A stretch of 64,000 nt of DNA from a bacterium (GTDB taxonomy: Bacteria > Patescibacteriota > Dojkabacteria > SC72). Positions within the stretch are counted from its first letter, which is position 1; each line of letters begins with the position of its first letter. The notes beneath the pieces are model-generated. The model worked only from the letters and a program-made list of their open reading frames with translations. It was not told where the DNA came from and did not search any database. The translations under genes were made by a program, and so were the position numbers. Shown here one piece after another: positions 14,409 to 49,218 of this stretch. Location: the NCBI GenBank assembly GCA_021108295.1, contig JAIORF010000005.1:136531-200530 (forward strand), read 5' to 3'.

Positions 14409-14796
14409 GAAGTTAATGTTTATATTTAGTGGAGTATTGGTGTTCCTTCTTGGAACTCTTGTGGTTTTTGTTTTTAAGGCTCAAGGGTCTAGTGAGTTGG
14501 ATATGGTGTCTGGTTGTGTGCCTTACAATGTTTCGTTGTCTAGGGGGGAGAGTGATCATCAGGTTGTAATTGATTGGAAGACGGAAGAGGAGTGTGTAGG
14601 GTATGTGATGTATGGGGATGATAGGGGGAATTTAGATCTAGTAAGTATTGATACTAGAGATCTTTCGTCTAAGGTGCATACAGTAGTTCTTGAGAAGCTG
14701 CTTAGTACAAAGAATTATTACTTTGTGATTAATTCAGGGGATATGGATTATGGTGATAGTGGGGTTCCTTTATCTTTCTCTCTCTCTTCTCTCTAA
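14401..14796 (+). CDS. Hypothetical small surface protein with an FN3/purple-acid-phosphatase-N-like domain
   Basis: TM 'LMFIFSGVLVFLLGTLVVFVF'. The 'VVIDWKTEEECVGYVMYG' motif resembles the PAP N-terminal FN3 domain. Confidence 0.4.
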   Translation: MSRKLMFIFSGVLVFLLGTLVVFVFKAQGSSELDMVSGCVPYNVSLSRGESDHQVVIDWKTEEECVGYVMYGDDRGNLDLVSIDTRDLSSKVHTVVLEKLLSTKNYYFVINSGDMDYGDSGVPLSFSLSSL

Positions 14797-16491: not shown

Positions 16492-16551
16492 ATTTAGGCA
16501 GTAATATTACATTCTTGATATAGTTTAGGTTAATATCTTGGTAAATGTCAA

Positions 16552-18930: not shown

Positions 18931-18941
18931 GGCAGTGGACT

Positions 18942-19952: not shown

Positions 19953-20385
19953 TTTCTTGTGGTTTTGAATTTAAGAATTCTTGTAGAAATACGGCAGCAG
20001 CTACACTGTCTATTTTCTTTCTACTCTTTTTGGTTGATTGGCTTGTGTATAGTAGCATATCTTGAGCGGTAACTGTAGAGTAGCTTTCGTCGTAGGGAAG
20101 GATTGGTAGTTTGATACCGTTCTTTAGGATTTGTTCGAATTTTTCTATTTTCTTTATTGTTCTTTGGTGTGAGATTTCAAACATTTGTGGTTTTCCTAAG
20201 AGTATTGTTTGTACTTTATTTGTTTCGCATATGTCTGAGATTTTTTCTATAATTTTGTCATATCCGTTCATTGGTGTTATGTGTAAGACTTCAAGTGGTG
20301 TGGCAACTATTCCTTTGAAGTCTGATATTGCGAGTCCTATGTGTTTTGTACCATAGTCTATGGCTAGTATTGGGTATTGTGTCAT
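19945..20385 (-). CDS. ruvX: Holliday-junction resolvase-like nuclease RuvX/YqgF
   Basis: 'ILAIDYGTKHIGLAISD......PLEVL', 'ILLGKP'. 146 aa. Confidence 0.85.
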   Translation of the reverse strand: MTQYPILAIDYGTKHIGLAISDFKGIVATPLEVLHITPMNGYDKIIEKISDICETNKVQTILLGKPQMFEISHQRTIKKIEKFEQILKNGIKLPILPYDESYSTVTAQDMLLYTSQSTKKSRKKIDSVAAAVFLQEFLNSKPQENV

Positions 20386-20386
20386 T

Positions 20387-22135: not shown

Positions 22136-22156
22136 ATTGGAGATTATATCAGAAAT

Positions 22157-24019: not shown

Positions 24020-24034
24020 ATCTATATATTAATG

Positions 24035-25381
24035 TTACTCATTAGTTTGTGCAAGTTGATCGTTAATATCAATTTGCGCATTTTTCATAGCACTTTGGAT
24101 ATCCTTACCATCTTCTACAATTTCTGTAATTGCGTTGTTTAAAGTTTTCTCTACAAACATCTGGTCTCCCATCCCCCAAGACTTCATATGTGGAGCCATT
24201 ATTGTGTATGCTTTGAGGTATGGATTATTCGCTAAGGAATCGTTGAGGGTTACTAATGAGTAAGGTTCACCAAAAGCTCTAATTTGTGAAGATGCCGAAA
24301 AGACATCCTGTTGATTATCAATTAAGAAGCTTATGAATTCCCATGCAGCATCTGGATTAGTACAGGTTTTGGTTACACTATCTCCCCAGTACATAGAGTA
24401 GTAAACTTGGTTGTTGTTTTCAAGCTGTGGTAGTGGCGCAATCCCAAATTCAATACTTGGTGCTGATTGGATGATATCAAATGCTCTCCAACTCGGAGCG
24501 AACATCATTGCCAAATTACCAGCGTAAAACATTTCGAGATCATTTCTTAACTCAGAGCTCCATACGGGATCTTCTCCTAATGTGAAATTGGTATAGATAT
24601 ATGTTGCGGAGAGAACACTATCACTAACTAGATTGGTAGAGGTGTAGGTTTCGTCTATGATATCTGCTCCATTAAGTAGCATTAAGTAGGAGAGAATGTC
24701 TGCAGAGTGAGTGATATTTCGAGATGTACCAATGGCAAGTCCTGATTGTGAAATTTGTCCTGCACTGTTCTTAGTAGTCAGTTTCTTCGCTAATTCTACA
24801 AAAGAATCCCAATCTGTTGGTGGTTCTGCAACTCCTGCTTGAGAGAGTAGTTGCTTATTGTAAAATATTGCTAACCCATCTATTTCCCAAGGCATTGCGT
24901 ATATATTCCCATCCTTTGCAGTGAAATCTGATGTTGCAGTAGGGTAGAATTTCTCAGAATATGTTGTACTATCCATGATGGAAGTAGGTAGTGGTGAGAG
25001 ATATTTGTAGTATTTTGGTGTCCAGCTATTATAAATTCGTACAATATCCGGAGCAGGTTCCGAGGAGGTAGATGCTTGTTGAAGTCTTGTGTAAAGTCTA
25101 CTCTCATAGTTTGTAAAAGATTGTTGAGAGTAAACGATCCTTACTTCAGGATGCAATGCTTCATACTTTTCAATGATTGGTTGCATGACGCTCTCTGGTT
25201 CCCACAGTCCCCAGTAGGAAAGTTCAGTACTTACTTGTATATCTGTATCGGTGTTTGTAGAATTACTTTCTTGATCTCCTAAAATTACTACGATGATTAG
25301 AGTTATTATTAAAAATACTAAAACTATTCCTAGTATTGTGATTAGTTTTTTCTGCTTCTGATTCATATTTACATTGTACAC
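24035..25381 (-). CDS. ABC transporter extracellular solute-binding protein (family 1, sugar-type), membrane-anchored
   Basis: N-terminal TM anchor, then 'WGLWEPE...PDI..IYNSWTPKY', 'NIYAMPWEIDGLAIFYNKQLL..AGV', 'DPD.AWEFISFL'. No permease or ATPase genes adjacent. Confidence 0.65.
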   Translation of the reverse strand: MYNVNMNQKQKKLITILGIVLVFLIITLIIVVILGDQESNSTNTDTDIQVSTELSYWGLWEPESVMQPIIEKYEALHPEVRIVYSQQSFTNYESRLYTRLQQASTSSEPAPDIVRIYNSWTPKYYKYLSPLPTSIMDSTTYSEKFYPTATSDFTAKDGNIYAMPWEIDGLAIFYNKQLLSQAGVAEPPTDWDSFVELAKKLTTKNSAGQISQSGLAIGTSRNITHSADILSYLMLLNGADIIDETYTSTNLVSDSVLSATYIYTNFTLGEDPVWSSELRNDLEMFYAGNLAMMFAPSWRAFDIIQSAPSIEFGIAPLPQLENNNQVYYSMYWGDSVTKTCTNPDAAWEFISFLIDNQQDVFSASSQIRAFGEPYSLVTLNDSLANNPYLKAYTIMAPHMKSWGMGDQMFVEKTLNNAITEIVEDGKDIQSAMKNAQIDINDQLAQTNE

Positions 25382-25384
25382 AAA

Positions 25385-26179
25385 CTAATATCTTTCTGCC
25401 ACTACTACGAGTCTTTTTGTTCCGATTCCAAGAGGCCAGCAGGTCATCAGTGTTACTGTCTCTTTACTCCCTTGATTGTCTAGTATGGAGAAATCATCTG
25501 ATTCGACAATCTTTTTCTTCCTTACAATGTAGTGTAGAAGATTGTCATCCTTCTTAATATATACATCATTTCCAATATCAATATCCTCGAGTCTAGTGAA
25601 GATTGTTTCTGCTAGGTTTTGATGTCTAGTGAAGAAACTTTCTACAGAGCTATGTCCATAGATGAATGAGTTTCCTCCATCTCCCGGAAGAGGTGTTCCT
25701 TTGAAATGTGCTACCCCTCTTTTAAGATATTGATCGTAAACCCTTTCTTCAGTACTTTCTACATTCGGCGTTATGATAATATCCTCTATCCCAACACTCT
25801 TAATCGATATGTACATATCTTTAGAATATTCGCTGTCAATTTGGATTTCTTTTTGTGAATCGGTAGTTGGATCGTAGGTATATATCCCCTTAAATGTTAG
25901 ACCTTCTATTCCATCCTCCAAATTCGCAAAGTAATTCTTGCTTGGATCGTAGTAAGCAAATTCTTCCTCAATATATGCTTTGTATGAATCAGGAACGGGA
26001 TTTTTCATCAGTTTTACTCTAGTTTGTTCAATTACTCCATCTATATAGGATTTAGTTAACGGGATCGCTTGGGAAAGGATTATTAAAATGCCGATGAGTG
26101 ATAGAGATACTGAGATAGCTATCTTAGTCTTTTTGACCTTCGTTGTTTGTTCTTCTGGTATATTCCATTCATTTTGCAT
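25385..26179 (-). CDS. Sortase family transpeptidase
   Basis: N-terminal TM, His 'SFIYGHSS', Cys 'TLMTCWP', Arg 'TKRLVVVA'. Confidence 0.75.
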   Translation of the reverse strand: MQNEWNIPEEQTTKVKKTKIAISVSLSLIGILIILSQAIPLTKSYIDGVIEQTRVKLMKNPVPDSYKAYIEEEFAYYDPSKNYFANLEDGIEGLTFKGIYTYDPTTDSQKEIQIDSEYSKDMYISIKSVGIEDIIITPNVESTEERVYDQYLKRGVAHFKGTPLPGDGGNSFIYGHSSVESFFTRHQNLAETIFTRLEDIDIGNDVYIKKDDNLLHYIVRKKKIVESDDFSILDNQGSKETVTLMTCWPLGIGTKRLVVVAERY

Positions 26180-36503: not shown

Positions 36504-36818
36504 ATGTTTGAAACAATACCATCAATATATTGGATGATCCTTATAGGAGTACCTGCAGGATTCTTTACATTCATACTCTACCAATTAGGTATGGTTACTA
36601 AGGATATGAGAGGGGTAGTACAAAATAGTACTAAGATATTGGAAGAATCAAACAAGACATTGATTAAAACAAATGTAATATTAGATGATGTCCAAGCAAT
36701 TGTAAGTACTACTAAAGGGACTGTAGAAGAAGTAAATCAGGCAGTTATAGTACCTGTTAGACAAATATCAGGACTATTATCCAAACTCACGGCATTTCTC
36801 TCTGGAATAAAGAAATAA
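36504..36818 (+). CDS. Small membrane protein (104 aa; N-terminal TM pair, coiled-coil C-terminus, DUF948-like)
   Basis: 'IYWMILIGVPAGFFTFILYQLGMV'. First gene of a seven-gene same-strand cluster. Confidence 0.4.
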   Translation: MFETIPSIYWMILIGVPAGFFTFILYQLGMVTKDMRGVVQNSTKILEESNKTLIKTNVILDDVQAIVSTTKGTVEEVNQAVIVPVRQISGLLSKLTAFLSGIKK

Positions 36819-36907: not shown

Positions 36908-38524
36908 ATGTATATAACTCCATACCAAAAGAAACAGCTAACTACAATCTTCATACTAGTACTAGGAATACCACTAACCCTCTTCGCCATATACACTGGA
37001 GCACAATGGTTTACAAGTGCAGGAGCGAACACCCAACCCAAAGATGTGATACTAGCTAATTTGACAACTAACTCTGTTGTAGTAACTTGGACTACAAGCG
37101 ATGAAGTAATAGGATCAGTAATCCCTGTACTAAATGGTACAGAGGGCAGCCCAGTAATAGACAAGAGAGGAAGTGGGAAAAGAAATACCCACTACGTTGA
37201 GATTAAAAGTTTGGAACCAGGTACAGAATATGATTTTAAGATAATATCAGGAGAAGATACCTATGTAGATGTGGGTGGTACAGAGTTCGAATTTTCTACA
37301 GCCAACATTAGTGCAGATATTCCAACCCCTACCCCTGTACACGGAATACTCGCAGATATTAGTGATGACGATGCATTGATATATATTCTCCCTAAAGACA
37401 AAACAACATACCCTGCAGCAACAGTACCATCAAGTAATGGGAACTGGTTGGTAGATCTCTCATCATTAAGAAGAATTGAAGATAAAAGTATGTATACAGT
37501 ATTAGAATCAACGGATTTAGTGGTAATAGGAGTCTCAAGTATTGGGAATGCAGGTGTTGTAGAAGGACAGTATGGAATAATATTTGATTCTAGTAAAAAA
37601 TTAACAGAAACGCTTGTTTCTTCAGGGACACAATATGACATATATATATCTGAAGATACAAAGCTAGTAGCTACGGAAGACAAAGAAGAGGAACCTACTG
37701 TAGTAGTGGATAAAGAGAATGAAACACCATATGTACCACCTGTTGTTGTAGAACAAGAGGTTGAAGAAACTTTTGATAAAGAGTATGAACTTAAAAACGA
37801 TCTAATTTGGACTAATTTAGTGTCCAGTGAAGGTGTAGTGCCTACGCAACCAGACGAATATGGAACAGATAGTGTAATGGTAACAAATCTTACCGATGTT
37901 GGCTGTTCTATCATATGGTTCTCCCAAGAATCTCAACAAGGTCATGTGATGTCCGGGACTTCTATATCAGAGCTATCGGACAAAGGGAGAGATGAAAGAG
38001 ATGGCATAGCGTCACAGGGAGAATATTTCTTACACAGTATTGAAATTACACAACTACAACCAGAAACAACATACTACTTTGAAATATACTCAGGAGAAGA
38101 AACATATGAGTATGAAGGGGAAATAACTACCTTTGCTACACAGTCTAGTCCTCCACAATTCGAAACTATTGTAGGAACTCTAGAAGTAGACGATTACAAA
38201 AATGCCCTTGTTGTTGCAACCTTCGTAGATAATGATGGTATTGGATCTAAAGGTACAAGCCACCCAATCTCTACTCTGGTAGATAGTGAGGGCTCTTGGA
38301 TTTTGACAATTGGTGGAGCAAGGGACAGTGAAGGTGAGTATTTTGACAAGAGTAATGATGACAAAGTTAACCTAAGTTCTAAGTATTTTACAAATTCTTC
38401 AGCTACTGAGATGACCATTGGAGAAGCCACTTCTGAAGAAATAGGGATTTCAACTTCTAGCTCAAGTGATTTGGCGTTTAGTATAATCCCATCACTTTCT
38501 GACTACGGTGTTCTTGTAGATTAA
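36908..38524 (+). CDS. Surface protein with an N-terminal signal anchor and two FN3-like (PAP-N-type) domains
   Basis: TM 'LTTIFILVLGIPLTLFAIY'. 'VVVTWTTSDEVIGSV....HYVEIKSLEPGTEYDFKI' and a second 'VTNLTDVGCSIIWFS.....HSIEITQLQPETTYYFEIYSG'. Confidence 0.5.
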   Translation: MYITPYQKKQLTTIFILVLGIPLTLFAIYTGAQWFTSAGANTQPKDVILANLTTNSVVVTWTTSDEVIGSVIPVLNGTEGSPVIDKRGSGKRNTHYVEIKSLEPGTEYDFKIISGEDTYVDVGGTEFEFSTANISADIPTPTPVHGILADISDDDALIYILPKDKTTYPAATVPSSNGNWLVDLSSLRRIEDKSMYTVLESTDLVVIGVSSIGNAGVVEGQYGIIFDSSKKLTETLVSSGTQYDIYISEDTKLVATEDKEEEPTVVVDKENETPYVPPVVVEQEVEETFDKEYELKNDLIWTNLVSSEGVVPTQPDEYGTDSVMVTNLTDVGCSIIWFSQESQQGHVMSGTSISELSDKGRDERDGIASQGEYFLHSIEITQLQPETTYYFEIYSGEETYEYEGEITTFATQSSPPQFETIVGTLEVDDYKNALVVATFVDNDGIGSKGTSHPISTLVDSEGSWILTIGGARDSEGEYFDKSNDDKVNLSSKYFTNSSATEMTIGEATSEEIGISTSSSSDLAFSIIPSLSDYGVLVD

Positions 38525-38562: not shown

Positions 38563-39915
38563 ATGTCGAAGAAATTGTATAGAAGAAAACCCATACTCTT
38601 TTTAGTAGCTCTAATTCTGTTTGGGATTTTTGTTGTAAATATAACTCAAGATATTACTAATATCCAAGCTGACACACAGGAATTTGTACTAAGTGAGAAG
38701 GTAGAAGCCAACGAAGGAGATTGTAACTTAGAACAAGATATATTCTTTGAGATAGACGAAAACTTTAAACCGATTAGAGAAGTTCAACCTGGAATGGTCT
38801 TGTATGAACAAGATGTGTTGGGAACAGAGTGTGTAACTCCACGTTACAGCTACTCTTCCGAGAAAATATGTTCTAGGACTACATCCTTTGATACGAATAT
38901 GGGTAAGAAAGAAGGTTTGCTTACAGTCGATACAATGATTGAGAGAGATTCATCTATTTCTCTTACGAGTATTCAAGTACCACCATTGTTAAATGGTTCA
39001 CCTACTATGGATAGCTCTGTTAGACAGATATTTACTGAAAAAGAGGGTGCTGAACATTGGACACTAAAACCTGCAGGAGAGATGGTTAATAAAGAGGTGG
39101 TTGCTGGGAATGCATATCCAGGAGATACTCAGACACAAGAGAGGATAGAGGATGCTGAGGAATCTAAAACCAAGTCTTTTGGTATCACTTACTCTGTCGA
39201 AGGGGGCTCCAATGCAGAAGGATCAGGTAAAAATGAATTCTCTATTTCAACCTACCAAACTAATGACTGTGGAGCAGAGTGTAGAAACTACTCTAATCCT
39301 ACTCCAGAGAAGTATCTTTCTAGTGCACAGATATTAGGACAGTCTCAAAACTATCCCGGTTACTACGACAATGTTCCAGAACAGCAGGATGAGAGTATTA
39401 ATAATTGTGATACGAATACTACATTTCTTAAAATGGATTTAGATACAGAGATGAAGGGCTGTACTCCAAGTCTTAAGCAAGTTGTAATGTCGTTTTTTAA
39501 GAGGATTACAAGTCTTTTTGAAGCAGACAAATGTTCTAATCAAGGAGAATCAAGTGAGGCTTGTATAAGTACTGCGAGTATTGTTATCATTATGGAATCT
39601 CCTTGGGGTAGTAAGGAGGATTGTGCTGATGGAGCGTGTGTTACAGAGTTTAATGAGCTTAGAAATGGAGGATTTTCAATTCCAAGTAGTGATGCTTCAA
39701 GCAGGATTTATGTTTTGACAGATTGCTATGCAAATATTGAAGGACAGAGTAATGTTCTTCTTTCATGTGCTTGGGATATGGACTATATTACTCAAGAATT
39801 AGAATTTCAGTCACATGACAATATACCTCAGGAGGTATTTCCTGATAGAATGGATTATATTAATTTTCATGTGTGGGAGAGTGAGCGTAGAACAGATGGT
39901 GTGTATGAGATGTAA
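38563..39915 (+). CDS. Secreted Cys-rich hypothetical protein (450 aa)
   Basis: N-terminal TM/signal 'ILFLVALILFGIFVV'. Many paired Cys. No homology recognised. Confidence 0.45.
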   Translation: MSKKLYRRKPILFLVALILFGIFVVNITQDITNIQADTQEFVLSEKVEANEGDCNLEQDIFFEIDENFKPIREVQPGMVLYEQDVLGTECVTPRYSYSSEKICSRTTSFDTNMGKKEGLLTVDTMIERDSSISLTSIQVPPLLNGSPTMDSSVRQIFTEKEGAEHWTLKPAGEMVNKEVVAGNAYPGDTQTQERIEDAEESKTKSFGITYSVEGGSNAEGSGKNEFSISTYQTNDCGAECRNYSNPTPEKYLSSAQILGQSQNYPGYYDNVPEQQDESINNCDTNTTFLKMDLDTEMKGCTPSLKQVVMSFFKRITSLFEADKCSNQGESSEACISTASIVIIMESPWGSKEDCADGACVTEFNELRNGGFSIPSSDASSRIYVLTDCYANIEGQSNVLLSCAWDMDYITQELEFQSHDNIPQEVFPDRMDYINFHVWESERRTDGVYEM

Positions 39916-39939: not shown

Positions 39940-41346
39940 ATGAAGAGATTTAATAAAGACTTATTTTGGTCTGTATTGGTAATTGTTATGTTTTTTCTTT
40001 CGACCAACATATATGCTCAGGAAGGAATAGACTTGGGAGCATCTTACGAAGCTACTGTAGAGGCGGTGAATGCAGGACAAGGCGCAGAGAAGGATGAGTA
40101 CAATTCTGCAAGATCACAGGCTGTAAGTGCTAATACGGCAGTTGTAAATGCGATCATTTACTTAGCACCTGAAGTCTCTTCAACATATCAAACAATGTTG
40201 GATTCAGAGACACTTCCACAAGATATGAAACGAGGTATCTATGGTATGACTGCTGATGGTGTATATACCATGTATGAGTCACAACCTCTTGTGAATGTTT
40301 ATGCACATCTGGCAGAGGAATGGGTGCCTGGTTATCAATCAACTACTTCGGTATATGCGGATTTCTCAACAGGTCCATATGATTCAGGATATGATGAGCT
40401 AGTGAATTCCGGTATTAGTGGTTTGTGGTCACAGGTCAGAAATATTACTTATGTAATCTTTATCCTAATCATGATAGTTGTTGGTTTTATGATTATGTTT
40501 AGGAGTAAATTAGATGGTCAGACATTAGTCTCTCTTGGAAATACATTACCAAATATTATTCTTGCTTTAATAGGGGTCACCTTTAGTTTTGCGATAGCGG
40601 GGTTGATAATAGATATTGGAGGAGTATTAATGGTAGTTCTAATTAATATATTTGATGTAAGTAGTGGCTATGATCAATTCATAACTCTCGAAAGTATTGG
40701 TGCATTATTTGGGGCTGTTGTCCCTCAAGGGATGGTTCAAGATGCCTCATCCTTTATTGCTGAACGAGGCATTGTAGGCAGAGGTCTCTTGGCAGTTGTT
40801 GGAGCAACCCTTGCCCCAGCTGCTGGTCTTGTAGCTTTATTACCAACATTAGTGATTTTAGGTGTTATGACTGTAGGGGTAATTAAAGTCTTCATAACTT
40901 TAATTAAGGCATATGTAGGTATTATAATAAATGTTATTACAGGGCCGTTCCAAATTGCAATGTCAGCGATTCCGGGTCAAAATGCAAGCTTCATCAATTG
41001 GGTGAAAAGTGTTATGAGAAATGTATTGGTATATCCAATTGTGTTTGCGATTTTAAACCTTCCTGGGATTATATATTCTTTGGCTGGAGAGGGAGGAATA
41101 TCTCTTCCTGGTCCGGATAAACTTACTCTGACTCAAAGTCCTGGTCAATTGAACCAAGAAATTGGTTTTGTATCGGGAGCATTAGTCTTCATATTGCAAA
41201 TCTTTGTACTTTTCGCAGCTTCCAAAGCAGATGCGTACGCTAATGCGATATTACCTCCAACATCATCAAAGGCTAGTGGAGATGCAGCTCTAGCTGCAAA
41301 GCAAGCTTTATCTGGAATACCTCTAATTGGGAAATTAATAAAGTAA
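39940..41346 (+). CDS. Polytopic membrane protein (signal peptide, ~150-aa ectodomain, 6-8 TM); VirB6/TrbL-like in architecture
   Basis: Signal 'VLVIVMFFLSTNIYAQEG'. The C-terminal half has successive hydrophobic helices with Gly/Ala/Pro-rich loops. Assigned by architecture, not by motifs. Confidence 0.4.
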   Translation: MKRFNKDLFWSVLVIVMFFLSTNIYAQEGIDLGASYEATVEAVNAGQGAEKDEYNSARSQAVSANTAVVNAIIYLAPEVSSTYQTMLDSETLPQDMKRGIYGMTADGVYTMYESQPLVNVYAHLAEEWVPGYQSTTSVYADFSTGPYDSGYDELVNSGISGLWSQVRNITYVIFILIMIVVGFMIMFRSKLDGQTLVSLGNTLPNIILALIGVTFSFAIAGLIIDIGGVLMVVLINIFDVSSGYDQFITLESIGALFGAVVPQGMVQDASSFIAERGIVGRGLLAVVGATLAPAAGLVALLPTLVILGVMTVGVIKVFITLIKAYVGIIINVITGPFQIAMSAIPGQNASFINWVKSVMRNVLVYPIVFAILNLPGIIYSLAGEGGISLPGPDKLTLTQSPGQLNQEIGFVSGALVFILQIFVLFAASKADAYANAILPPTSSKASGDAALAAKQALSGIPLIGKLIK

Positions 41347-41356
41347 TTAGAAATAT

Positions 41357-44134
41357 ATGGCTGGATATAAAGGCAAGAGTGAAACAATATCATCTGTATC
41401 AGATATTCTAGGTTTTATCCTAGAACAGTCTGAACTACCACCAGAGAAAAGAAGACCAGTAAGACCACCACAGACTGCAGATAGTCAAGCAAGTTCTGAA
41501 TATGCACAGACATTAGTGGATGCACTTGCTATGCCAGGAACGTTTGTAGGAGAAAAGTATCTCGAGACTGTTGAAGGGCTTGTAAGTCCAACTATTGCAA
41601 TAGGGACACAGACTGGTCGTATACCTAATGTCAAGATAACGGCTAGTGCATTACCAGAGTTTTTTGAAAATCCTGATGAGTTTGTAGATAAATTGTTCCA
41701 GAAGAACAAAGACATATCTAAGATGCAGAAAATTAGATGGGCAGGTGAACAGATGAGGGTATTGGCAGGTAGTACATATGCTAAGAAAATGGGTTTATTC
41801 GATGACTATGGAGATCTTAAATCTACTCTTGAAAGAGGTCTAGGACAGGTTGCAATGGACTCTGGGAATGAAAGAGATAAGCAGTGGATTACAAAAGCAT
41901 CAATAGATATCAAGGAGCATGGGATGGTAAATAGTGTTAGTGTTAAAGATTTGGAAAGGAGGAAGAAAGTAGCGCATAGTATAAAGGGGAAAGAGCGTAT
42001 TCAAGGACAAATTGAAGCGTTGTCATTTAAGCACGGCAGTGAGGAAGAAGCGAAGAAGGATCAGGACATTGGAACATTTAGGTCTCTCTTGGGTTTAGAG
42101 TTTGATGAGCGAAGAATTAAGATTCTCGATGGAAGGGATCTTAAAGATCTCGATTCTAAAGAACTAGATTCTTTTAAGAAGGTCCAAAGTGCTTCAAACA
42201 CACTGTCTTTATGGTCTGGATATGAAAAATTAGACCATAGAGGTATGAAGGATAAGTGGTCTAATATTAGAGAGCAGAGAAAAGAGATTTCCGATATAAA
42301 GCAAGGGTTTGGTGATCGATTGAAGGCAATCAAGAATGGGACAACAATCACTCTTGACGACGGCAATACGATTGATTATGGAAAGTTGTCATCCTCAGAT
42401 AGGCAGAAAGAAAAAGCATATATTAGCAAGAATCTCAAACAATTAAGTACAACAGAAAGATCTCTAACTAGTGTATATCTTTGGAGTAAAATAGGCCAGG
42501 CTGAGGGGGTATATCATGGTCTCAAGCAGACTTTTGGTCCTGGAGGTGTTGAAGCTTTCTTGAATGGAGATTTCTTTGATCCAAATAAGGGTTTCTTTGG
42601 ATGTCCTTCTGCAAAAGGGAAGTTTAGAGGAGTAGAGTTTGTTACGTCTAAAAGTACAAAATATAAGAAAGAGAAAGGTGGGAAATATAAAGCGACCCTT
42701 ACGGACACATACAATGATACCATGGTGCGGCTATACTACCTCAATCCAACAACCTGGATGAAAACTGCTTTTAACGGTTCAGGCTTTGCCTGGATAGCAG
42801 AAAACCGTGAGGTGTCTTTAGCCAAGATGTGGGGTGTTAAAGAAAGTAGAATTTTTAAAGACTTACAGAAGCCTGAATTTTGGGCATTCTATAAGAGATA
42901 TAAGGATCTTGATCCTACAAAACAAACCTTAATGCTTGATAGAGATCCTAAATATAAAGCCCTACTAGGATATATTAGCAAAGGATTAGGAGAAAAGGCA
43001 TTTGCCAAGAAATTTAAACAAGCAGAGAAAATATTCAAGAGCTTAGAAAGGTTTTCAGGATTGTCAAGATTCTTTAGTACTCCAACAAGAATACGTGATT
43101 ATATTGTGGAGGGAACTATTGGGAAAGTACAAAAAGGTTTTAGGAATAATGCGTATAGGGTTTTGTCTAAAATGAAAATCTTTACAAATTCTGAAGCTGC
43201 CAAATCTCTGTTGAGAACTTGGAAGGCAACAGGAGGATCCTCTCTTTCAGCAGCAATTGCTCAAGGTATTTTGACTGCTCTAGGTGCAGCAAGTAGTGTA
43301 GTTGCAGGACCTTTAGGTGTAGCTTTAACATTGGCAGTATCGGTTATTCTAGAAAAAGTTGCCAAAGTATCAATCAAAGTATTTATTTATGCTTTTATAG
43401 GAATCTTTGGTGCAATAATATTACTAGGAGCTTCAATAGAGTTTGGTAGCAGAGCACAAGTAGACTCATACTCTAGAGAAATCCCAGGTACGATATATGA
43501 GAATCCAAACTTTGGTGGATATGGAGGTTTTTACTCTGGATGGTTTAGTGGTGGTGGAGGGAATTTTGTTCCTCCTCCTATAAATATCCCTGCACCAACA
43601 AACTCTTCCTGTCCACTCGGGGATGTTAAATATCGTTGCTCTCAAGGATTTACTCGTACAGTATGTTCGCACAAGAATATTACACATAAATACCCAGTAG
43701 ACCTGACAGGCTTCTCGTTCTTCTATGCCCCACAATACTGTGACACATCCACTTGTACTGCAAGTCTGTCAAGCATGGCCGCATGGCGATGTAGTGACGG
43801 TAGTTTTACTGGACGAAACATAGAGTTTAGTGATGGACAAGGAAATGTTTTCAATCTAATGCATACAAAACTAATATCACCAGGTAATGGACGCAACTAC
43901 AAAGCAGGTGAGCCAGTCGCATATATCTACCAATATGCAGCCGAAATGGTTGCTGATGATCCACTAGGGATTACTAAGCCTAATAAGAATGGAGTCTTCT
44001 ACTGTTGGACAGGAGCCCATATACACCTTACAATTACACATAATGGTCAGTACATTGACCCTATTGCATTCTTAGTTGAAATGGGATGTACAAATGGAGC
44101 CCAATCAGAGTCTGAATGTCCTCCATGTAAGTAA
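41357..44134 (+). CDS. 925-aa membrane-spanning protein: ~630-aa cytoplasmic N-domain, TM hairpin, Gly-rich linker, extracellular Cys-rich M23 (LytM)-like metallopeptidase domain
   Basis: TMs 'VVAGPLGVALTLAVSVIL' and 'VFIYAFIGIFGAIILLGASI'. Linker 'GGYGGFYSGWFSGGGGNFVPPP'. C-terminus 'HKYPVDLTG...' and 'YCWTGAHIHLTITHNGQYIDPIAFL' (M23 HxH). Confidence 0.5.
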   Translation: MAGYKGKSETISSVSDILGFILEQSELPPEKRRPVRPPQTADSQASSEYAQTLVDALAMPGTFVGEKYLETVEGLVSPTIAIGTQTGRIPNVKITASALPEFFENPDEFVDKLFQKNKDISKMQKIRWAGEQMRVLAGSTYAKKMGLFDDYGDLKSTLERGLGQVAMDSGNERDKQWITKASIDIKEHGMVNSVSVKDLERRKKVAHSIKGKERIQGQIEALSFKHGSEEEAKKDQDIGTFRSLLGLEFDERRIKILDGRDLKDLDSKELDSFKKVQSASNTLSLWSGYEKLDHRGMKDKWSNIREQRKEISDIKQGFGDRLKAIKNGTTITLDDGNTIDYGKLSSSDRQKEKAYISKNLKQLSTTERSLTSVYLWSKIGQAEGVYHGLKQTFGPGGVEAFLNGDFFDPNKGFFGCPSAKGKFRGVEFVTSKSTKYKKEKGGKYKATLTDTYNDTMVRLYYLNPTTWMKTAFNGSGFAWIAENREVSLAKMWGVKESRIFKDLQKPEFWAFYKRYKDLDPTKQTLMLDRDPKYKALLGYISKGLGEKAFAKKFKQAEKIFKSLERFSGLSRFFSTPTRIRDYIVEGTIGKVQKGFRNNAYRVLSKMKIFTNSEAAKSLLRTWKATGGSSLSAAIAQGILTALGAASSVVAGPLGVALTLAVSVILEKVAKVSIKVFIYAFIGIFGAIILLGASIEFGSRAQVDSYSREIPGTIYENPNFGGYGGFYSGWFSGGGGNFVPPPINIPAPTNSSCPLGDVKYRCSQGFTRTVCSHKNITHKYPVDLTGFSFFYAPQYCDTSTCTASLSSMAAWRCSDGSFTGRNIEFSDGQGNVFNLMHTKLISPGNGRNYKAGEPVAYIYQYAAEMVADDPLGITKPNKNGVFYCWTGAHIHLTITHNGQYIDPIAFLVEMGCTNGAQSESECPPCK

Positions 44135-44142
44135 TACAAATT

Positions 44143-45084
44143 ATGAACAAAAAAACACTTAAAATTTTAATAATAGTAACTGTAGGAATGATACTCCTTA
44201 TAGGAGCATTCCTCATATACTCCTTACTCCAGCCAAAAGCATTAGAAGGTGAATTGATAGATACGAATCCATACCTCAATGACAATACCGAATACAATTT
44301 GAGTATAGAAGCAACAATTGAAACGAAAGACTCTCCTCTCTATATATGCAAATCCAATACAATACCAGAATATTTAGATTCTTTCGCGTCGAAAATTGAT
44401 AATGGCTTGCAAAAAACATCTGATATGAATTTTGTAACATGGGGGAAAGACGGAGAGGTAATAGTGAGATATGATATAGATACAACAGTACTCATGATTA
44501 ATTTATCCCAGTACCCAGAAGCGATGAGATTTAACTCAATAGAAGACTTTATAATTACCTACCTAGATCCTACAATTAAATATGTAGACCCAATTATAGA
44601 CGAAGGAGAAGGGTTTAAAATGTATAGAGTAAATAGAATTATAGACGAGCAAGAAATAAAGACGGGCTCAGGTAGTTCGGACTATTTCTATACCGAAAAA
44701 GGATACCTTAAGACTGCAAGAGTACTACTAGCGCAAATAGAGAAATCTGAATTTATAGCCCCTATGATAGAGGACATAGCTCTTTTAGAGCGATATCTCT
44801 CTTCTCCACAATATCCTAAAATGATAACAATAGATACAACTGGAGTGATAACTTCTGATGAATTCACCTACGAAACCATGGATGTTGAGATAGAATATGA
44901 GAAATGTTCTATCAATAAAATTGAGCCAGTTCTTTACTTTGTCAATTGCAATCAGAACTTCCTGTACTACTCCTACGAAATCTCAGGAGTATGTGATGTT
45001 GAATATGAAAAAGGACTCTTTAGTGTACCTTTTGTAGGATTCATGAACGCAATAGACCCTGAATATGTCAAAAGTGGAGAATAG
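44143..45084 (+). CDS. Membrane-anchored hypothetical protein (313 aa, N-terminal TM)
   Basis: 'ILIIVTVGMILLIGAFLIYSLL', then a soluble domain. Gram-positive VirB8-like proteins have a comparable layout, but no motif supports that. Confidence 0.35.
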   Translation: MNKKTLKILIIVTVGMILLIGAFLIYSLLQPKALEGELIDTNPYLNDNTEYNLSIEATIETKDSPLYICKSNTIPEYLDSFASKIDNGLQKTSDMNFVTWGKDGEVIVRYDIDTTVLMINLSQYPEAMRFNSIEDFIITYLDPTIKYVDPIIDEGEGFKMYRVNRIIDEQEIKTGSGSSDYFYTEKGYLKTARVLLAQIEKSEFIAPMIEDIALLERYLSSPQYPKMITIDTTGVITSDEFTYETMDVEIEYEKCSINKIEPVLYFVNCNQNFLYYSYEISGVCDVEYEKGLFSVPFVGFMNAIDPEYVKSGE

Positions 45085-46254
45085 TTGGTACAATGTAGTA
45101 TGAAAATAAAAAATCTTTTACTAACAATCTTCTTTTTAACAATATTCATCACCCCAATACTAGGATATACCGACTCACACACAGATTTTGATACCTCGCT
45201 AGTGGCTGGTATACAGTATCAATATAGCCAACCAACTAAAATTCTCTTTACCCAAATAGAAGGTAGCTATGAATCTCTAAATCTAAGTACACAAGACTAC
45301 CTCGATGTAATATATTACTACTCAATTACAAAACTTAAACTAGGAAATATCCCATTCCACTATGCAATTGATGAAAACGGAGATGTTTTCAGTACACAGA
45401 ATGTAGATGCTCTTAAGCTTACGGATGAACAATATATTGTAATTGCCTACCTTTCGAATAATCCTCAAGTAAGTAATAAGGCAAGAAATTCCATTCTAGA
45501 AGTTGCAAATGACCTCTCCTACAAATATGGGATTACCCAATATGACACTTACTCTTACAATATTGTAGAAACTGAAGACATACTCTCAAAACTTGAACTA
45601 GTAGATCCTAATAATCTCTTTTTTACATCAATTGACGACAGTTTGGAAGAATGGGAAATAAGTGAAAGAGAGCATCTAGATTACGAAGCTGAGATTGAGA
45701 ATATAGAGTATGAAGAAAGTGTAGAGATAGGGAATACACTACAAGTTAAAGTAACAGTTAAGAATGGAAATGACTTTGTATGGCTTTCTGACAAATACCC
45801 AATATATATATCAGTAAAAGATTCTCGGGAAAGTATATACGCACTAAATGGAGAATGGGATAGTTTTAGCAAACCTGTACACATATCCTCTGATAGATAT
45901 GTACTACCAGGAGAGAGTATAGAGATGACATTTAAACTAGATCCTAAAGTATTACCAGGGAAAAATGCAGAAGCATTTGAGATTCATAAGTTTGCAAAAG
46001 AAGTGTTTTTAGAATCTGAATTTGTAGTGGAATTTACTGTAGTAAAGGGAGACAACACATTGGTGAAAATGGTGTCTCCAGAATTCGGATTTGTAAATAT
46101 AAGGGAATGTAGATGGTATAGCTGTGAGAAAATTGAAGTAGCAAATGATGGAGAAGTTTACATTGTAGTAAAAGAAGAAGAAGGATGGTATCAAATTCTC
46201 TTTGGACAGGACAAAGAAGGGTGGGTATACGGTAAGTATGCCAAAGAAATTTAG
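45085..46254 (+). CDS. Secreted hypothetical protein with a C-terminal SH3b-like domain
   Basis: Signal 'LLLTIFFLTIFITPILGYT'. C-terminus 'GEVYIVVKEEEGWYQILFGQDKEGWVYGKYAKEI'. Confidence 0.4.
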   Translation: MVQCSMKIKNLLLTIFFLTIFITPILGYTDSHTDFDTSLVAGIQYQYSQPTKILFTQIEGSYESLNLSTQDYLDVIYYYSITKLKLGNIPFHYAIDENGDVFSTQNVDALKLTDEQYIVIAYLSNNPQVSNKARNSILEVANDLSYKYGITQYDTYSYNIVETEDILSKLELVDPNNLFFTSIDDSLEEWEISEREHLDYEAEIENIEYEESVEIGNTLQVKVTVKNGNDFVWLSDKYPIYISVKDSRESIYALNGEWDSFSKPVHISSDRYVLPGESIEMTFKLDPKVLPGKNAEAFEIHKFAKEVFLESEFVVEFTVVKGDNTLVKMVSPEFGFVNIRECRWYSCEKIEVANDGEVYIVVKEEEGWYQILFGQDKEGWVYGKYAKEI

Positions 46255-48294: not shown

Positions 48295-49218
48295 CTACCT
48301 ATCATACTCCCCATACTTAGCTACATATTTTCTATGACAACTAGGCCAATAGGAGTAAAGTTTTGCACCCTTTCTGATTTTTATAATAGTATTTTTAATC
48401 TGAGCATATCCATCATAAATATTGTCCTTTGGATAAAATATGCTCCAATACTTAGGATGCCACTGATAAAGTCCCTTGTATGTTGAATTCTTATCACTCT
48501 CCGCATTACAACCAGACTCACAATACATTACAAAATTTAACCACTCCTTTTCTCGTTCTGTATAATTCCCACTATTAACTACACTACGCCAATGTGTACA
48601 GTTGTATCCATAAGTCTTCTCTAAATCTCCAATACCAAGACTCAATACACCAACCTTCACTACCTCCTTAACTGACTCACGACTAATTCTTTCAGAAAGT
48701 ATTACCTCTGATACCAACTTACCATCTTCGTAAACCCTCTCTATCTCTTGTGTACGAACACCAAGCACACCCTTTTGTGTGACTAATGTATCACCATATG
48801 GGATATCCTTTGTATTAATCTTTTCTGTTTGGAATGGGATATCAATATCGAATCCCTCGACAACAGTACCCACAGTAATTACTCTGATTACACTACCAGC
48901 CTGAACTTCTTGAGATATACTAACTATTCTCTTACTGTTATCCACCACTACTCCAAGATCCTTGAGAAGACTTAAGGCATCCTCCCTGTTTGTCAGTACC
49001 TGTGTAGACCGTCCATTAATTACTACAGTAACTAAACTTAAATCAAACACATGATTACTCTCTTGGGTATTGAAATTAAGTAAAATATTAGAAACATCAG
49101 CAACCCCTCTGTCATTGTAAGCATGGGTATATTTCGGATTAATACCAATTAAAACAACTGGTAGAAGTAGGGAAAGGCAAATTGTAGAAGTTAGAATCAC
49201 TAACTTTGAGATTTTCAT
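48295..49218 (-). CDS. RpfB-like secreted peptidoglycan-active protein: G5 domain plus C-terminal Rpf-type transglycosylase-like domain
   Basis: G5 'FDIDIPFQTEKINTKDIPYGDTLVTQKGVLGVRTQ...V.EDGK....V.....I.....EVVKVG'. C-terminus 'CESGCNAESDKNSTYKGLYQW....W'. Confidence 0.6.
   Translation of the reverse strand: MKISKLVILTSTICLSLLLPVVLIGINPKYTHAYNDRGVADVSNILLNFNTQESNHVFDLSLVTVVINGRSTQVLTNREDALSLLKDLGVVVDNSKRIVSISQEVQAGSVIRVITVGTVVEGFDIDIPFQTEKINTKDIPYGDTLVTQKGVLGVRTQEIERVYEDGKLVSEVILSERISRESVKEVVKVGVLSLGIGDLEKTYGYNCTHWRSVVNSGNYTEREKEWLNFVMYCESGCNAESDKNSTYKGLYQWHPKYWSIFYPKDNIYDGYAQIKNTIIKIRKGAKLYSYWPSCHRKYVAKYGEYDR

What the first reader, a model, noticed from the sequence alone, without database searches (positions are those of the whole stretch)
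41357..44134. 925-aa protein coupling a large cytoplasmic domain, through a TM hairpin and a Gly-rich linker, to an extracellular Cys-rich M23-like peptidase
Seen: there is no signal peptide. Residues ~1-630 are hydrophilic, with no recognisable motifs. Two hydrophobic helices sit at ~aa 640-690. Then comes 'GGYGGFYSGWFSGGGGNFVPPPINIPAPT'. The last ~180 aa contain many Cys and 'TGAHIHLTITHNGQYIDPIAFL', which matches the HxH zinc-ligand motif and flanking consensus of M23/LytM peptidases. An upstream 'HKYPVDLTG' resembles the HxxxD motif.

An inside-to-outside fusion of a large unknown cytoplasmic domain to a PG endopeptidase is unusual. It suggests a regulated or machine-associated cell-wall remodelling enzyme, as in T4SS or T7SS-associated hydrolases.
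Basis: partly seen in the sequence, partly recalled or inferred. Interest (0 to 1): 0.6.

Follow-up and report, generated by a model that had tools for sequence, protein, structure and literature searches.

The report
Membrane-tethered M23 wall peptidase, novel N-domain
A candidate-phyla (Dojkabacteria-type) bacterium encodes a cell-wall-cutting zinc peptidase tethered outside the membrane to a large, previously undescribed intracellular helical domain, in a conserved, fast-evolving operon of other wall-directed proteins; it is a new variant of a known enzyme type whose target (own or host wall) is unresolved.

Summary
The ORF (41357-44134, +, 925 aa) is real and every quoted sequence feature is present. 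On its own the C-terminus fails Pfam M23 even at E<=10. Family evidence overturns that: 224 relatives at 50% clustering, 5 of 16 close homologues hit PF01551, the family profile hits solved M23 enzymes (1.1e-09), the AlphaFold model matches M23 folds (prob 1.00), and all catalytic residues are about 90-99% conserved.

Topology is most likely N-in/C-out. It rests on one strong TM helix preceded by a Gly/Ala-rich hairpin-like block; a plain two-helix hairpin would put both domains on the same side. The N-region is basic and Cys-free in 139/139 members, and the head is acidic and Cys-rich.

The N-region (~625 aa, helical) has no detectable homologue. It resembles phage M23-bearing ejection and tape-measure proteins only in architecture.

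The gene sits in a seven-gene envelope operon that is syntenic across the family. The downstream neighbours are YycI-like and PGRP/SH3b-like. A VirB4 locus lies 34 kb away, so a T4SS link is not supported. Within the family the heads swap between M23, an HExxH type and CHAP.

Verdict: new variant of a known kind.

The parts
41357..44134 (+). Whole ORF: 925 aa plus stop codon. Founding member, in this window, of a Patescibacteria (Dojkabacteria-type) protein family.
41384..41464 (+). Highly conserved N-terminal peptide (aa 10-36, TISSVSDILGFILEQSELPPEKRRPVRPP): a short amphipathic helix followed by a basic Pro-rich tail. Candidate docking motif; function unknown.
   Evidence: Invariant T10, S12, S13, S15, D16, G19, F20, L22, Q24-E26 among 16 homologues. 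Modelled as helix 13-25 followed by a low-pLDDT stretch.
41357..43231 (+). N-terminal region aa 1-625: all-helical, basic (net +29), with one Cys, no signal peptide, and no detectable homologue outside the family. Predicted cytoplasmic.
41834..42436 (+). Variable, indel-rich long-helix (coiled-coil-like) segment, aa 160-360.
   Evidence: Low conservation and occupancy. Long helices in the model. Only coiled-coil-type PDB sequence hits, e.g. the SlaB stalk 8qox_B.
42437..42796 (+). Most conserved core of the N-region, aa 361-480 (G380, E383, G384, Y386, G388; NGDFFDP; YYxNP; GEGFAW). Function unknown.
   Evidence: The most distant relatives align only from about here onward.
43241..43351 (+). 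Charge-free Gly/Ala/Ser-rich hydrophobic block (aa 629-665) with a conserved central Gly-Pro. Either a helical hairpin or a re-entrant, interface-packing segment.
43379..43438 (+). Strongly hydrophobic transmembrane helix (aa 675-694), preceded by the Lys-rich loop EKVAKVSIK.
   Evidence: KD19 of 2.37. Family-wide positive-inside pattern.
43457..43504 (+). Conserved extracytoplasmic juxtamembrane motif (aa 701-716, xVDSYSREIPGxIYxN; Y705 and P710 invariant among the 16 close homologues, P710 >=90% in the 83-sequence alignment). Candidate interaction or processing site.
43505..43606 (+). Low-complexity Gly/Pro-rich flexible linker (aa 717-750), variable in length and sequence across the family.
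   Evidence: pLDDT below 50 at aa 721-736. Low occupancy. Alignment.
43607..44131 (+). Cys-rich M23 zinc-endopeptidase head (aa 751-925). Putative ligands and catalytic residues: H772 (43670-43672), D782 (43700-43702), H836 (43862-43864), H888 (44018-44020), H890 (44024-44026). Contains a subgroup-specific insert at aa 861-880.
   Evidence: insert.
36504..36818 (+). First operon gene: 104-aa small membrane protein with weak DUF948 similarity.
   Evidence: Syntenic.
36908..38524 (+). Operon gene: 538-aa N-terminally anchored surface protein with fn3 / purple-acid-phosphatase-N type Ig-like domains.
38563..39915 (+). Operon gene: 450-aa N-terminally anchored Cys-rich protein with no detectable relatives.
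39940..41346 (+). Operon gene immediately upstream (10-nt gap): 468-aa protein with a signal peptide, a ~140-aa extracytoplasmic domain and roughly 5-6 membrane spans. Probable membrane partner. No VirB6/TrbL signal.
44143..45084 (+). Operon gene immediately downstream (8-nt gap): 313-aa bitopic protein whose ectodomain folds like YycI (WalI).
   Evidence: AlphaFold pLDDT 72.8, pTM 0.66. Foldseek match to 2o3o, prob 1.00, E 1.3e-05.
45085..46254 (+). Operon gene: 389-aa secreted protein with a PGRP/amidase-2-like region (aa ~46-160) and a C-terminal SH3b wall-binding domain.

Best explanation
The gene encodes a membrane-tethered, catalytically complete M23 zinc endopeptidase.

Layout. A ~625-aa basic, Cys-free, all-helical N-terminal region stays in the cytoplasm. 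A membrane block follows, made of a Gly/Ala-rich hairpin-like segment and one strong TM helix. A conserved juxtamembrane motif and a ~35-50-aa flexible linker then hold a disulfide-rich M23 head outside the membrane. There the head cleaves peptide bonds of peptidoglycan.

Context. The protein is the enzymatic subunit of a lineage-specific, vertically inherited seven-gene envelope operon. It is probably co-translated with the polytopic membrane protein upstream, and it works with the YycI-like bitopic protein and the PGRP/SH3b wall-binding protein downstream.

What is shown: the domain identities, the conserved catalytic set, the synteny and the compartment signatures.

What is inferred: that the N-region acts as an intracellular control or scaffold module setting where and when the head cuts. 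This is conceptually like FtsEX-EnvC/PcsB or WalK-YycHI coupling, but within one polypeptide.

Favoured but unproven: the substrate is the cell's own sacculus (growth, division, or opening the wall for surface structures), because the head is tethered to the producer's membrane and the operon sits in the core genome.
For: M23 identity:
- 5 of 16 homologues hit PF01551.
- The C-terminal profile hits solved M23 chains, and the 83-sequence profile hits StM23 at 1.1e-09, ShyA at 3.2e-07 and LytM at 1.2e-05.
- hhalign to the phage A-4L M23 domain gives prob 90.6.
- The AlphaFold model (pLDDT 83) matches M23 folds with prob 1.00.

Catalytic set: D782 in 100/101 heads, H836 in 99/101, H888 in 99/101, H890 in 98/101, H772 in 88/101, with H(x)6-9D spacing. 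That spacing lies within the range the M23 review gives, H(x)7D to H(x)12D (PMC9662197).

Topology:
- 138 of 139 members have no N-terminal hydrophobic segment.
- K/R are enriched before the hydrophobic block and in the loop before the TM helix.
- The N-region is net positive in 139/139 members (median +24) and Cys-free; the C-region has median charge -9 and 4.2% Cys.

Operon:
- The same gene order and chromosomal position are kept down to ~20% identity.
- Gaps to the upstream gene are 1-19 nt.
- The neighbours are YycI-like and PGRP-like plus SH3b.
- Alternative heads in the family are also wall hydrolases, e.g. CHAP.
Against: - The query itself gives no M23 hit in Pfam or NCBIfam.
- Topology is inferred from hydrophobicity, charge and Cys bias only; no dedicated topology predictor or experiment was available.
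- The N-region has no homologue or recognisable motif, so its 'control module' role is pure inference.
- The N-region evolves as fast as the extracellular head (21-26% against 14-36% identity). That is unusual for a cytoplasmic regulatory domain.
- Head swapping, rapid divergence and adhesin-like fn3 partners fit a host-directed or conflict role at least as well as housekeeping autolysis.
- No enzymatic activity, zinc binding or complex formation has been shown.
Confidence: 0.55

Rival explanations
1. Host-directed wall breacher. The tethered head, presented at the epibiont-host contact by the fn3 surface proteins of the operon, digests the host bacterium's peptidoglycan to allow attachment, feeding or macromolecule transfer.
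For: - The operon genes evolve 2-3 times faster than flanking housekeeping genes.
- Heads swap in place between M23, an HExxH zincin-like domain, extra modules and CHAP.
- The head has the long H(x)nD spacer and multiple Cys, and its best or near-best sequence hits include bacteriolytic M23A-type enzymes (8s3m, 6ik4, LasA).
- The operon includes fn3-rich surface proteins, in relatives 1000-1500 aa long.
- Patescibacteria are generally epibionts, and M23 and lysozyme homologues are reported essential for epibiotic growth of S. epibionticum (PMC12102498).
Against: - The head is anchored to the producer's membrane by a linker of only ~35-50 residues, which limits its reach.
- The operon is a single-copy core locus among housekeeping genes.
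- There is no immunity-like gene or evidence of release.
- The host and its wall chemistry are unknown.
Confidence: 0.27
2. Detached T4SS component. The protein is the VirB1/PrgK-type wall hydrolase of the Patescibacteria T4SS, whose ATPase locus lies 34 kb away. In this reading the polytopic neighbour would be the 'missing' highly diverged VirB6.
For: - The window encodes PrgI/VirB3-like and VirB4 proteins but no VirB6, hydrolase or VirB8 next to them.
- The order polytopic protein, hydrolase, bitopic protein recalls PrgH...PrgK-PrgL (own knowledge).
- The survey of Patescibacteria T4SS reports that VirB6 is scarce or absent in some classes and that VirB1 homologues are often not near virB4.
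Against: - Ortholog profiles of the polytopic and bitopic neighbours give no VirB6/TrbL/PrgH or VirB8/PrgL signal.
- The bitopic neighbour folds like YycI, not NTF2/VirB8.
- No T4SS gene lies in or next to the operon in any of eight loci examined.
- Known T4SS hydrolases lack a 600-aa cytoplasmic domain.
Confidence: 0.1
3. Domesticated phage-type penetration protein. The whole polypeptide behaves like a podovirus ejection protein or a siphovirus tape-measure protein: it is exported without a signal peptide, its hydrophobic helices insert into a target membrane, and the M23 head opens the wall.
For: - Foldseek gives near-full-length matches to the Anabaena phage A-4L internal protein (E 3.2e-04, prob 0.89), 840-1010-aa phage 'Peptidase M23' proteins (prob 0.93, 0.75), Pf-WMP4 gp33, Cyanophage PP endopeptidase and a tape-measure protein.
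- The top PDB hit is the cyanophage A4 pre-ejectosome, 9k2v_A.
- A4 gp28 is described as N-terminal helical bundles followed by lytic transglycosylase and M23 domains (PMC12002296).
Against: - TM-scores are only 0.10-0.15.
- hhalign finds homology only in the M23 domain.
- The N-region has no tblastn hit in 50,697 phage records or 72,556 plasmids.
- There are no PHROGs hits for the protein or its neighbours.
- The locus is a syntenic chromosomal core with no capsid, tail or portal genes.
- The very hydrophobic TM helix and the positive-inside pattern fit a resident membrane protein.
Confidence: 0.06
4. Catalytically dead LytM-type regulator or scaffold (like EnvC, NlpD or SpoIIQ) that activates or positions another hydrolase instead of cutting peptidoglycan itself.
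For: Structural hits include degenerate LytM domains (SpoIIQ 3uz0, EnvC 4bh5/8c0j). The query's head fails Pfam and carries a 20-aa insert. The operon also encodes a PGRP/amidase-like protein.
Against: All five catalytic or ligand positions are present in the query and 87-99% conserved in 101 heads. Degenerate LytM domains characteristically lose them (PMC9662197).
Confidence: 0.02

Closest known systems
M23 peptidoglycan endopeptidases, especially long-spacer types (LasA / beta-lytic protease / pseudoalterin M23A; phi29 gp13)
   Same: The beta-rich fold. The H(x)nD, mid-domain His and HxH catalytic set. A long His-Asp spacer (x6-x9 here, x7 in gp13, x12 in LasA). An extracytoplasmic location.
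   Different: - Very divergent sequence: the query is missed by Pfam.
- Six near-invariant Cys.
- A subgroup-specific 20-aa insert.
- Fused behind a 625-aa cytoplasmic region and a membrane block instead of a signal peptide or propeptide.
Phage envelope-penetration proteins carrying M23 (cyanophage A4 gp28 / A-4L internal protein; tape-measure proteins such as SPbeta YomI and, from own knowledge, T5 Pb2)
   Same: Overall architecture: a long helical N-terminal part followed by wall-hydrolase head(s). Some family members also carry two extracytoplasmic modules in tandem, as these phage proteins do.
   Different: No sequence homology outside the M23 domain. The gene lies in a chromosomal core operon without phage genes. 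The protein is predicted to be a resident membrane protein rather than an ejected one.
Monoderm T4SS wall hydrolases (PrgK of pCF10, TraG of pIP501, CwlT of ICEBs1)
   Same: Membrane-anchored, modular peptidoglycan hydrolases (LytM/M23, SLT, CHAP) that serve an envelope-spanning machine. The genome does encode a VirB4/PrgI T4SS.
   Different: Those enzymes have an N-terminal anchor and no large cytoplasmic domain, and they are encoded beside virB4. Here the gene is 34 kb from virB4, in its own conserved operon with a YycI-like neighbour.
Cytoplasm-controlled hydrolase systems: FtsEX-EnvC/PcsB/RipC and WalK-YycH-YycI
   Same: The concept of coupling a cytoplasmic or membrane module to extracellular wall cleavage. 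The downstream neighbour shares the YycI fold.
   Different: The operon has no ABC ATPase, no FtsX and no histidine-kinase domain. Coupling, if any, occurs within one polypeptide through an unknown helical domain.

Membership tests
Peptidase family M23 (MEROPS M23 / Pfam PF01551) | Significant match to M23 sequence profiles | tested here: met
   The query alone gives no hit, even for the isolated C-terminus at E<=10. Family-level evidence does meet the test:
- 5 of 16 homologues hit PF01551, best E 1.1e-05.
- The family profile against solved M23 chains gives 1.1e-09 (9gy1), 3.2e-07 (ShyA) and 1.2e-05 (LytM).
- hhalign to the A-4L M23 domain gives prob 90.6.
Peptidase family M23 (MEROPS M23 / Pfam PF01551) | H(x)nD zinc-ligand motif | tested here: met
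H772-x9-D782 in the query. D is conserved in 100/101 heads and H in 88/101, and 100/101 heads have a His 3-14 residues upstream of the Asp. The allowed range of n comes from PMC9662197.
Peptidase family M23 (MEROPS M23 / Pfam PF01551) | HxH motif plus a catalytic His about 30 residues upstream | tested here: met
   H888 in 99/101 heads, H890 in 98/101, H836 in 99/101. The spacing is typically 32-36 residues; it is 51 in the query because of its own insert.
Peptidase family M23 (MEROPS M23 / Pfam PF01551) | M23 beta-sheet fold | tested here: met
   The AlphaFold model has pLDDT mostly 84-97 over aa ~740-925, with one block at 75. Foldseek prob 1.00 to 6jn7, ShyA, Csd1/2, StM23, LasA, EnpA and SpoIIQ.
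Peptidase family M23 (MEROPS M23 / Pfam PF01551) | Zinc-dependent peptidoglycan endopeptidase activity | not testable with these tools
   This needs biochemistry.
T4SS-associated wall hydrolase (VirB1/PrgK/TraG type) | Encoded within or next to a T4SS gene cluster (virB4 neighbourhood) | tested here: not met
   VirB4 is at 4868-7264 and PrgI-like at 7901-8722, about 34 kb away. No T4SS gene lies in the operon in eight loci.
T4SS-associated wall hydrolase (VirB1/PrgK/TraG type) | Neighbouring VirB6-like and VirB8-like membrane components | tested here: not met
   Ortholog profiles of the polytopic and bitopic neighbours have no VirB6/TrbL/PrgH or VirB8 hits. The bitopic neighbour folds like YycI. 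The fold of the polytopic protein could not be tested.
T4SS-associated wall hydrolase (VirB1/PrgK/TraG type) | Requirement for T4SS assembly or function | not testable with these tools
   This needs genetics, or a co-occurrence analysis over many genomes.
Phage ejection / tape-measure proteins with M23 | Located in a phage morphogenesis module | tested here: not met
   No PHROGs hits for ten local proteins. The flanks are housekeeping genes and are syntenic across the family.
Phage ejection / tape-measure proteins with M23 | Homology of the helical region | tested here: not met
   hhalign aligns only the M23 domain. tblastn of aa 1-688 finds nothing in phages or plasmids.
Phage ejection / tape-measure proteins with M23 | Architecture: long helical region followed by a wall-hydrolase head | tested here: met
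   Near-full-length Foldseek alignments at prob 0.57-0.93 but TM-score 0.10-0.15. Description of gp28.
WalK/YycH/YycI-type wall-homeostasis module | Histidine-kinase domains in the membrane partner | tested here: not met
   No HisKA, HATPase_c or PAS hit in the target or its neighbours. Only the YycI-like fold of the 313-aa neighbour is shared.

The most novel reading that the evidence does not exclude
The operon encodes a Dojkabacteria-specific contact apparatus in which this protein acts as a cell-to-cell penetration device analogous to a phage ejectosome. The conserved N-terminal peptide and helical region would be engaged from inside the cell. The membrane block and polytopic partner would form a conduit. 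The interchangeable heads (M23, HExxH, CHAP) would be tuned to the wall chemistry of the particular host, opening it for attachment or nutrient and DNA uptake.
Probability: 0.2. Interest if true: 0.85.

Novelty: new variant of a known kind. Interest (0 to 1): 0.5.

Why it matters
Patescibacteria make up a large share of bacterial diversity, yet how they build, divide and open cell walls, their own or their hosts', is almost unknown.

This family gives a concrete and testable handle:
- a catalytically complete wall peptidase hard-wired through the membrane to a new ~625-aa intracellular domain;
- a conserved operon that also holds a YycI-like protein and a PGRP/SH3b protein;
- hydrolase heads that have been exchanged in place during evolution.

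If the target is the cell's own wall, this would be a one-polypeptide solution to the inside-out control problem that other bacteria solve with FtsEX-EnvC or WalKR. If the target is the host wall, the swapped heads would be markers of host range.

The case also shows that single-sequence Pfam screening misses this whole M23 subgroup.

Tried and rejected
1. Pfam, NCBIfam and PHROGs on the query and on the isolated N- and C-terminal parts gave nothing useful. phmmer against PDB also gave nothing.

2. T4SS reading. VirB4 and PrgI were found, but 34 kb away. Ortholog profiles of the polytopic and bitopic neighbours showed no VirB6 or VirB8 signal. The bitopic neighbour turned out YycI-like. I rejected this as the primary explanation.

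3. Phage-origin reading. The structural resemblance did not survive sequence-profile testing or tblastn.

4. My by-eye guess that the extra modules of the long family members are lysozyme/SLT-like found no support. There were no Pfam hits and no PDB profile hits. Only the CHAP domain of P0084 scored (E 4e-05, just under Pfam's cutoff).

5. The HExxH head has no significant relative among solved structures; collagenase matches reach only E 0.17-0.5.

6. The single sub-0.001 N-region PDB hit (8qox_B) is the coiled-coil stalk of the archaeal S-layer protein SlaB. I treated it as coiled-coil composition.

8. The 136-sequence alignment was too large for structure prediction.

9. A wrongly remembered accession cost one call.

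10. The 450-aa Cys-rich neighbour has no PDB relative.


Full report
**Observation.** The ORF at 41357-44134 (+) is the longest frame in its region and encodes 925 aa.
- There is no N-terminal hydrophobic segment. The maximum 19-residue hydropathy in the first 100 aa is 0.63.
- There is a hydrophobic block at aa 629-694.
- The Gly-rich string lies at aa 720-748.
- Ten of the eleven Cys lie in aa 752-924.
- 'HKYPVDLTG' is at 777-785 and 'TGAHIHLTITHNGQYIDPIAFL' at 885-906.

The window has 32-39% G+C and is dense with housekeeping genes: DnaJ, NusA, IF-2, PNPase, RsmB/E, PcrA, EF-G and EF-Tu. The close relatives found in genomes are Patescibacteria MAGs, mostly labelled Dojkabacteria.

Homologues change the picture.
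- A word-indexed search found 16 full-length relatives at 35-100% identity, one with a precomputed PF01551 hit.
- Scanning all 16 individually gave Peptidase_M23 for five, best E 1.1e-05.
- A profile of 13 C-termini hit solved M23 enzymes: 8s3m at 4.3e-05, pseudoalterin, StM23 and LytM.
- An 83-sequence full-length profile hit StM23 at 1.1e-09, ShyA at 3.2e-07 and LytM at 1.2e-05.
- An AlphaFold2 model built on that alignment (mean pLDDT 83.2, pTM 0.60; head mostly 84-97, one block at 75) matches M23 folds with Foldseek probability 1.00. The matches include Csd1/2, ShyA, LasA, EnpA, SpoIIQ and EnvC.

In 101 M23-type heads of the family the catalytic set is almost invariant: D782 in 100, H836 in 99, H888 in 99, H890 in 98 and H772 in 88. 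All but one head have a His 3-14 residues upstream of the Asp. The spacing is H(x)6, x8 or x9 D. The M23 review defines the motif as H(x)nD, with n=12 in LasA and n=7 in phi29 gp13, so this is within the family's known range.

The query also has its own 20-aa insert at aa 861-880, present in 13% of aligned members. It stretches the mid-His to HxH distance from the usual 32-36 residues to 51. This probably explains the Pfam miss. I conclude that the head is a divergent but catalytically complete M23 peptidase, not a degenerate LytM domain.

**Topology.** The block consists of three parts:
- a charge-free Gly/Ala/Ser-rich stretch (aa 629-665) with a conserved central Gly-Pro;
- a nine-residue Lys-rich loop;
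- one very hydrophobic helix (aa 675-694).

AlphaFold models helix 629-641, a break, and then a continuous helix 650-706.

Across 139 members of at least 700 aa, only one has a hydrophobic segment in its first 100 residues. The 20 residues before the block carry on average 3.3 K/R. The loop before the strong helix carries 2-3 K. The segment after that helix is neutral to acidic. Independently, the N-region has net positive charge in 139/139 members (median +24) and a median of zero Cys. The C-region has median charge -9 and 4.2% Cys.

A 625-aa N-terminal domain without a signal peptide is not expected to be translocated (established knowledge of Sec/YidC insertion). Together these points favour N-in/C-out. 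The Gly/Ala block would then be either a tight hairpin (three crossings) or a re-entrant, interface-packing element (one crossing). No dedicated topology predictor was available.

**The family.** An exhaustive HMM search of 1.84 billion representatives found 224 clusters with E<=1e-3 and 178 with E<=1e-10. All long members share the layout: 550-850 hydrophilic residues, one hydrophobic block, a conserved juxtamembrane motif (DxYSREIPG), a variable linker, and a ~190-230-aa Cys-rich head.

The heads differ.
- 97 of 139 have the G.H.H M23 signature, and at least four more are M23 variants.
- 37 have a different domain with an invariant HExxH...Q...EWGA(D)...N.G.Y.F signature. It has no significant relative among solved structures.
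- A few long forms add a further ~200-aa module.
- One (P0084) ends in a CHAP domain (E 4e-05).

My by-eye idea that the extra modules are lysozyme-like found no support.

**The N-region.** It is almost entirely helical with good confidence. Conservation is highest at aa 1-160, which includes a very conserved peptide at aa 10-36, and at aa 361-480. Segments 160-360 and 481-560 are variable and indel-rich.

It has no Pfam, NCBIfam, PHROGs or PDB sequence relative. The only sub-0.001 PDB hit is to the coiled-coil stalk of the archaeal S-layer protein SlaB, among other coiled-coil matches. It has no tblastn match in 50,697 phage or 72,556 plasmid records.

Foldseek does give near-full-length alignments to phage envelope-penetration proteins that end in M23:
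- the cyanophage A4 pre-ejectosome 9k2v_A (prob 0.57);
- the A-4L internal protein (E 3.2e-04, prob 0.89);
- 840-1010-aa phage 'Peptidase M23' proteins (prob 0.93, 0.75);
- Pf-WMP4 gp33, Cyanophage PP endopeptidase and a tape-measure protein.

A4 gp28 is described as N-terminal helical bundles followed by lytic transglycosylase and M23 domains. However, the TM-scores are only 0.10-0.15. hhalign between the family and the A-4L protein aligns only the M23 domain (prob 90.6, E 1.3e-06). I therefore treat this as an architectural parallel, not homology.

**Context.** The gene is fifth in a co-directional, tightly spaced cluster:
- a 104-aa small membrane protein;
- a 538-aa anchored fn3 protein;
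- a 450-aa anchored Cys-rich protein;
- a 468-aa protein with a signal peptide and roughly 5-6 membrane spans;
- the target;
- a 313-aa bitopic protein;
- a 389-aa secreted SH3 protein.

PcrA follows. Gaps between the polytopic gene and the target are 1-19 nt in eight loci.

The same gene order, at the same chromosomal position (PNPase-RsmB-RsmE | operon | PcrA-G5-TPR-EF-G-EF-Tu), is found for relatives down to ~20% identity. This includes one with the extra-module-plus-HExxH head, so the heads were exchanged in place. Between the same genome pairs the operon proteins are 20-40% identical, against 69-79% for EF-G and 59-66% for PcrA. The target is among the fastest, at 22-29%, and its N-region diverges as fast as its head.

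The 313-aa neighbour (AlphaFold pLDDT 72.8, pTM 0.66) has only two confident structural relatives. One is YycI (WalI), the bitopic regulator of the WalK wall-homeostasis kinase (11 chains, E 1.3e-05 to 2.7e-04, prob 0.99-1.00). The other is an uncharacterised Eubacterium protein. It is not VirB8/NTF2-like.

The SH3 protein combines a PGRP/amidase-2-like region with an autolysin-type SH3b domain. The PGRP region gives many weak hits at the same place (best E 3.5e-03), and the SH3b domain matches 4krt at 7e-06. The polytopic and Cys-rich neighbours have no detectable relatives.

**T4SS.** The window does encode a VirB4 ATPase (4868-7264, -), a PrgI/VirB3-like protein (7901-8722, -) and a 216-aa unknown between them. 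This fits the minimal core described for Patescibacteria. It lies about 34 kb from the target, separated by housekeeping genes. Nothing in the target's operon scores as a T4SS component. The T4SS association is therefore unsupported, although a functional link across loci cannot be excluded. The survey notes that VirB1 homologues are often not near virB4 and that VirB6 is hard to find in some classes.

**Interpretation.** Shown:
- a catalytically complete M23 head;
- a membrane block;
- a large basic Cys-free helical region;
- conserved linkage to wall-directed partners;
- vertical inheritance with rapid divergence and head exchange.

Inferred:
- N-in/C-out topology;
- physical complex formation with the operon partners;
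- a control or scaffold role for the N-region.

I favour action on the cell's own wall, because the head is tethered and the operon is a core-genome locus with a YycI-like and a PGRP/SH3b partner. The fast evolution, the interchangeable heads and the fn3 surface proteins keep a host-directed role very much alive. I found no description of this family in the searchable literature.

**Verdict.** This is a new variant of a known kind: an M23 wall hydrolase with a novel N-terminal domain, a novel architecture and a novel operon. It is of moderate interest.

Noticed in passing
window 4868-8722 (-): A minimal T4SS locus. It holds a VirB4-type ATPase (4868-7264; P-loop_TraG 2.9e-27), a 216-aa unknown (7254-7904; possibly TrsD-like, untested) and a PrgI/VirB3-like protein with an extra Ig-like C-terminal part (7901-8722). 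No VirB6, coupling protein, hydrolase or pilin array lies beside it.
   Followed up: partly
window 44143-45084 (+): A 313-aa bitopic protein whose ectodomain is predicted to fold like YycI (WalI), the regulator of the WalK kinase in Firmicutes. No histidine kinase is nearby, so the YycI fold is used in a different context here.
   Followed up: partly
window 45085-46254 (+): A 389-aa secreted protein with a PGRP/amidase-2-like region (aa ~46-160) that Pfam misses, plus a C-terminal SH3b domain. By eye the usual first zinc-ligand His of amidase_2 seems absent, so it may bind the wall rather than cut it.
   Followed up: partly
family members P0012, P0013, P0019, P0064-P0119 (e.g. L005:3641-6400): About a quarter of the family replaces the M23 head with an undescribed ~150-aa Cys-rich domain. 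It carries an invariant HExxH...Q...EWGA(D)...N.G.Y.F signature and looks like a minimal zincin. It has no significant solved-structure relative.
   Followed up: partly
family members P0058, P0066, P0084, P0068 and P0082, P0091, P0095, P0028: Two kinds of extra ~160-200-aa Cys-rich modules are inserted between the membrane block and the catalytic head. Neither has a Pfam or PDB relative. P0084 additionally ends in a CHAP domain.
   Followed up: partly
L003:10001-12997 (P0015), linker region: The linker of this homologue is expanded by repeats of the type TDGDG(I/V)PD(T/S)Y. By eye they resemble thrombospondin type-3 calcium-binding repeats.
   Followed up: no
window 38563-39915 (+): A 450-aa N-terminally anchored protein with seven invariant Cys and no detectable relative in Pfam, NCBIfam, PHROGs or PDB. 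It is among the fastest-evolving genes of the operon (20-25% identity between genomes whose EF-G is 69-79% identical).
   Followed up: partly
L001:1115-4432, L003:1-4363, L004:1979-5056, L014:1601-4984: Several relatives carry an additional 1000-1500-aa fn3 / Pur_ac_phosph_N-type surface protein at the head of the operon. This gene is absent at that position in this window and in L012 and L015.
   Followed up: no
window 14770-26179 (-): A further cluster of envelope genes: a DUF11 surface protein (14770-16491), LytR-CpsA-Psr (17473-18930), YceG/MltG (18942-19952), a Big_7 Ig-domain protein (22157-24019), a solute-binding protein (24035-25381) and a sortase (25385-26179).
   Followed up: no
window 229-1569 (+): A 446-aa protein with only a weak partial Thy1/ThyX match (E 3.3e-07, aa 347-426), located next to dCTP deaminase. 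It may be a divergent or fused thymidylate-synthase-related protein.
   Followed up: no
window 48295-49218 (-): A G5-domain protein (with a weak PASTA-like match) is conserved on the opposite strand just after PcrA in all syntenic loci. G5 domains occur in wall-associated proteins, so it may belong functionally with the operon.
   Followed up: no
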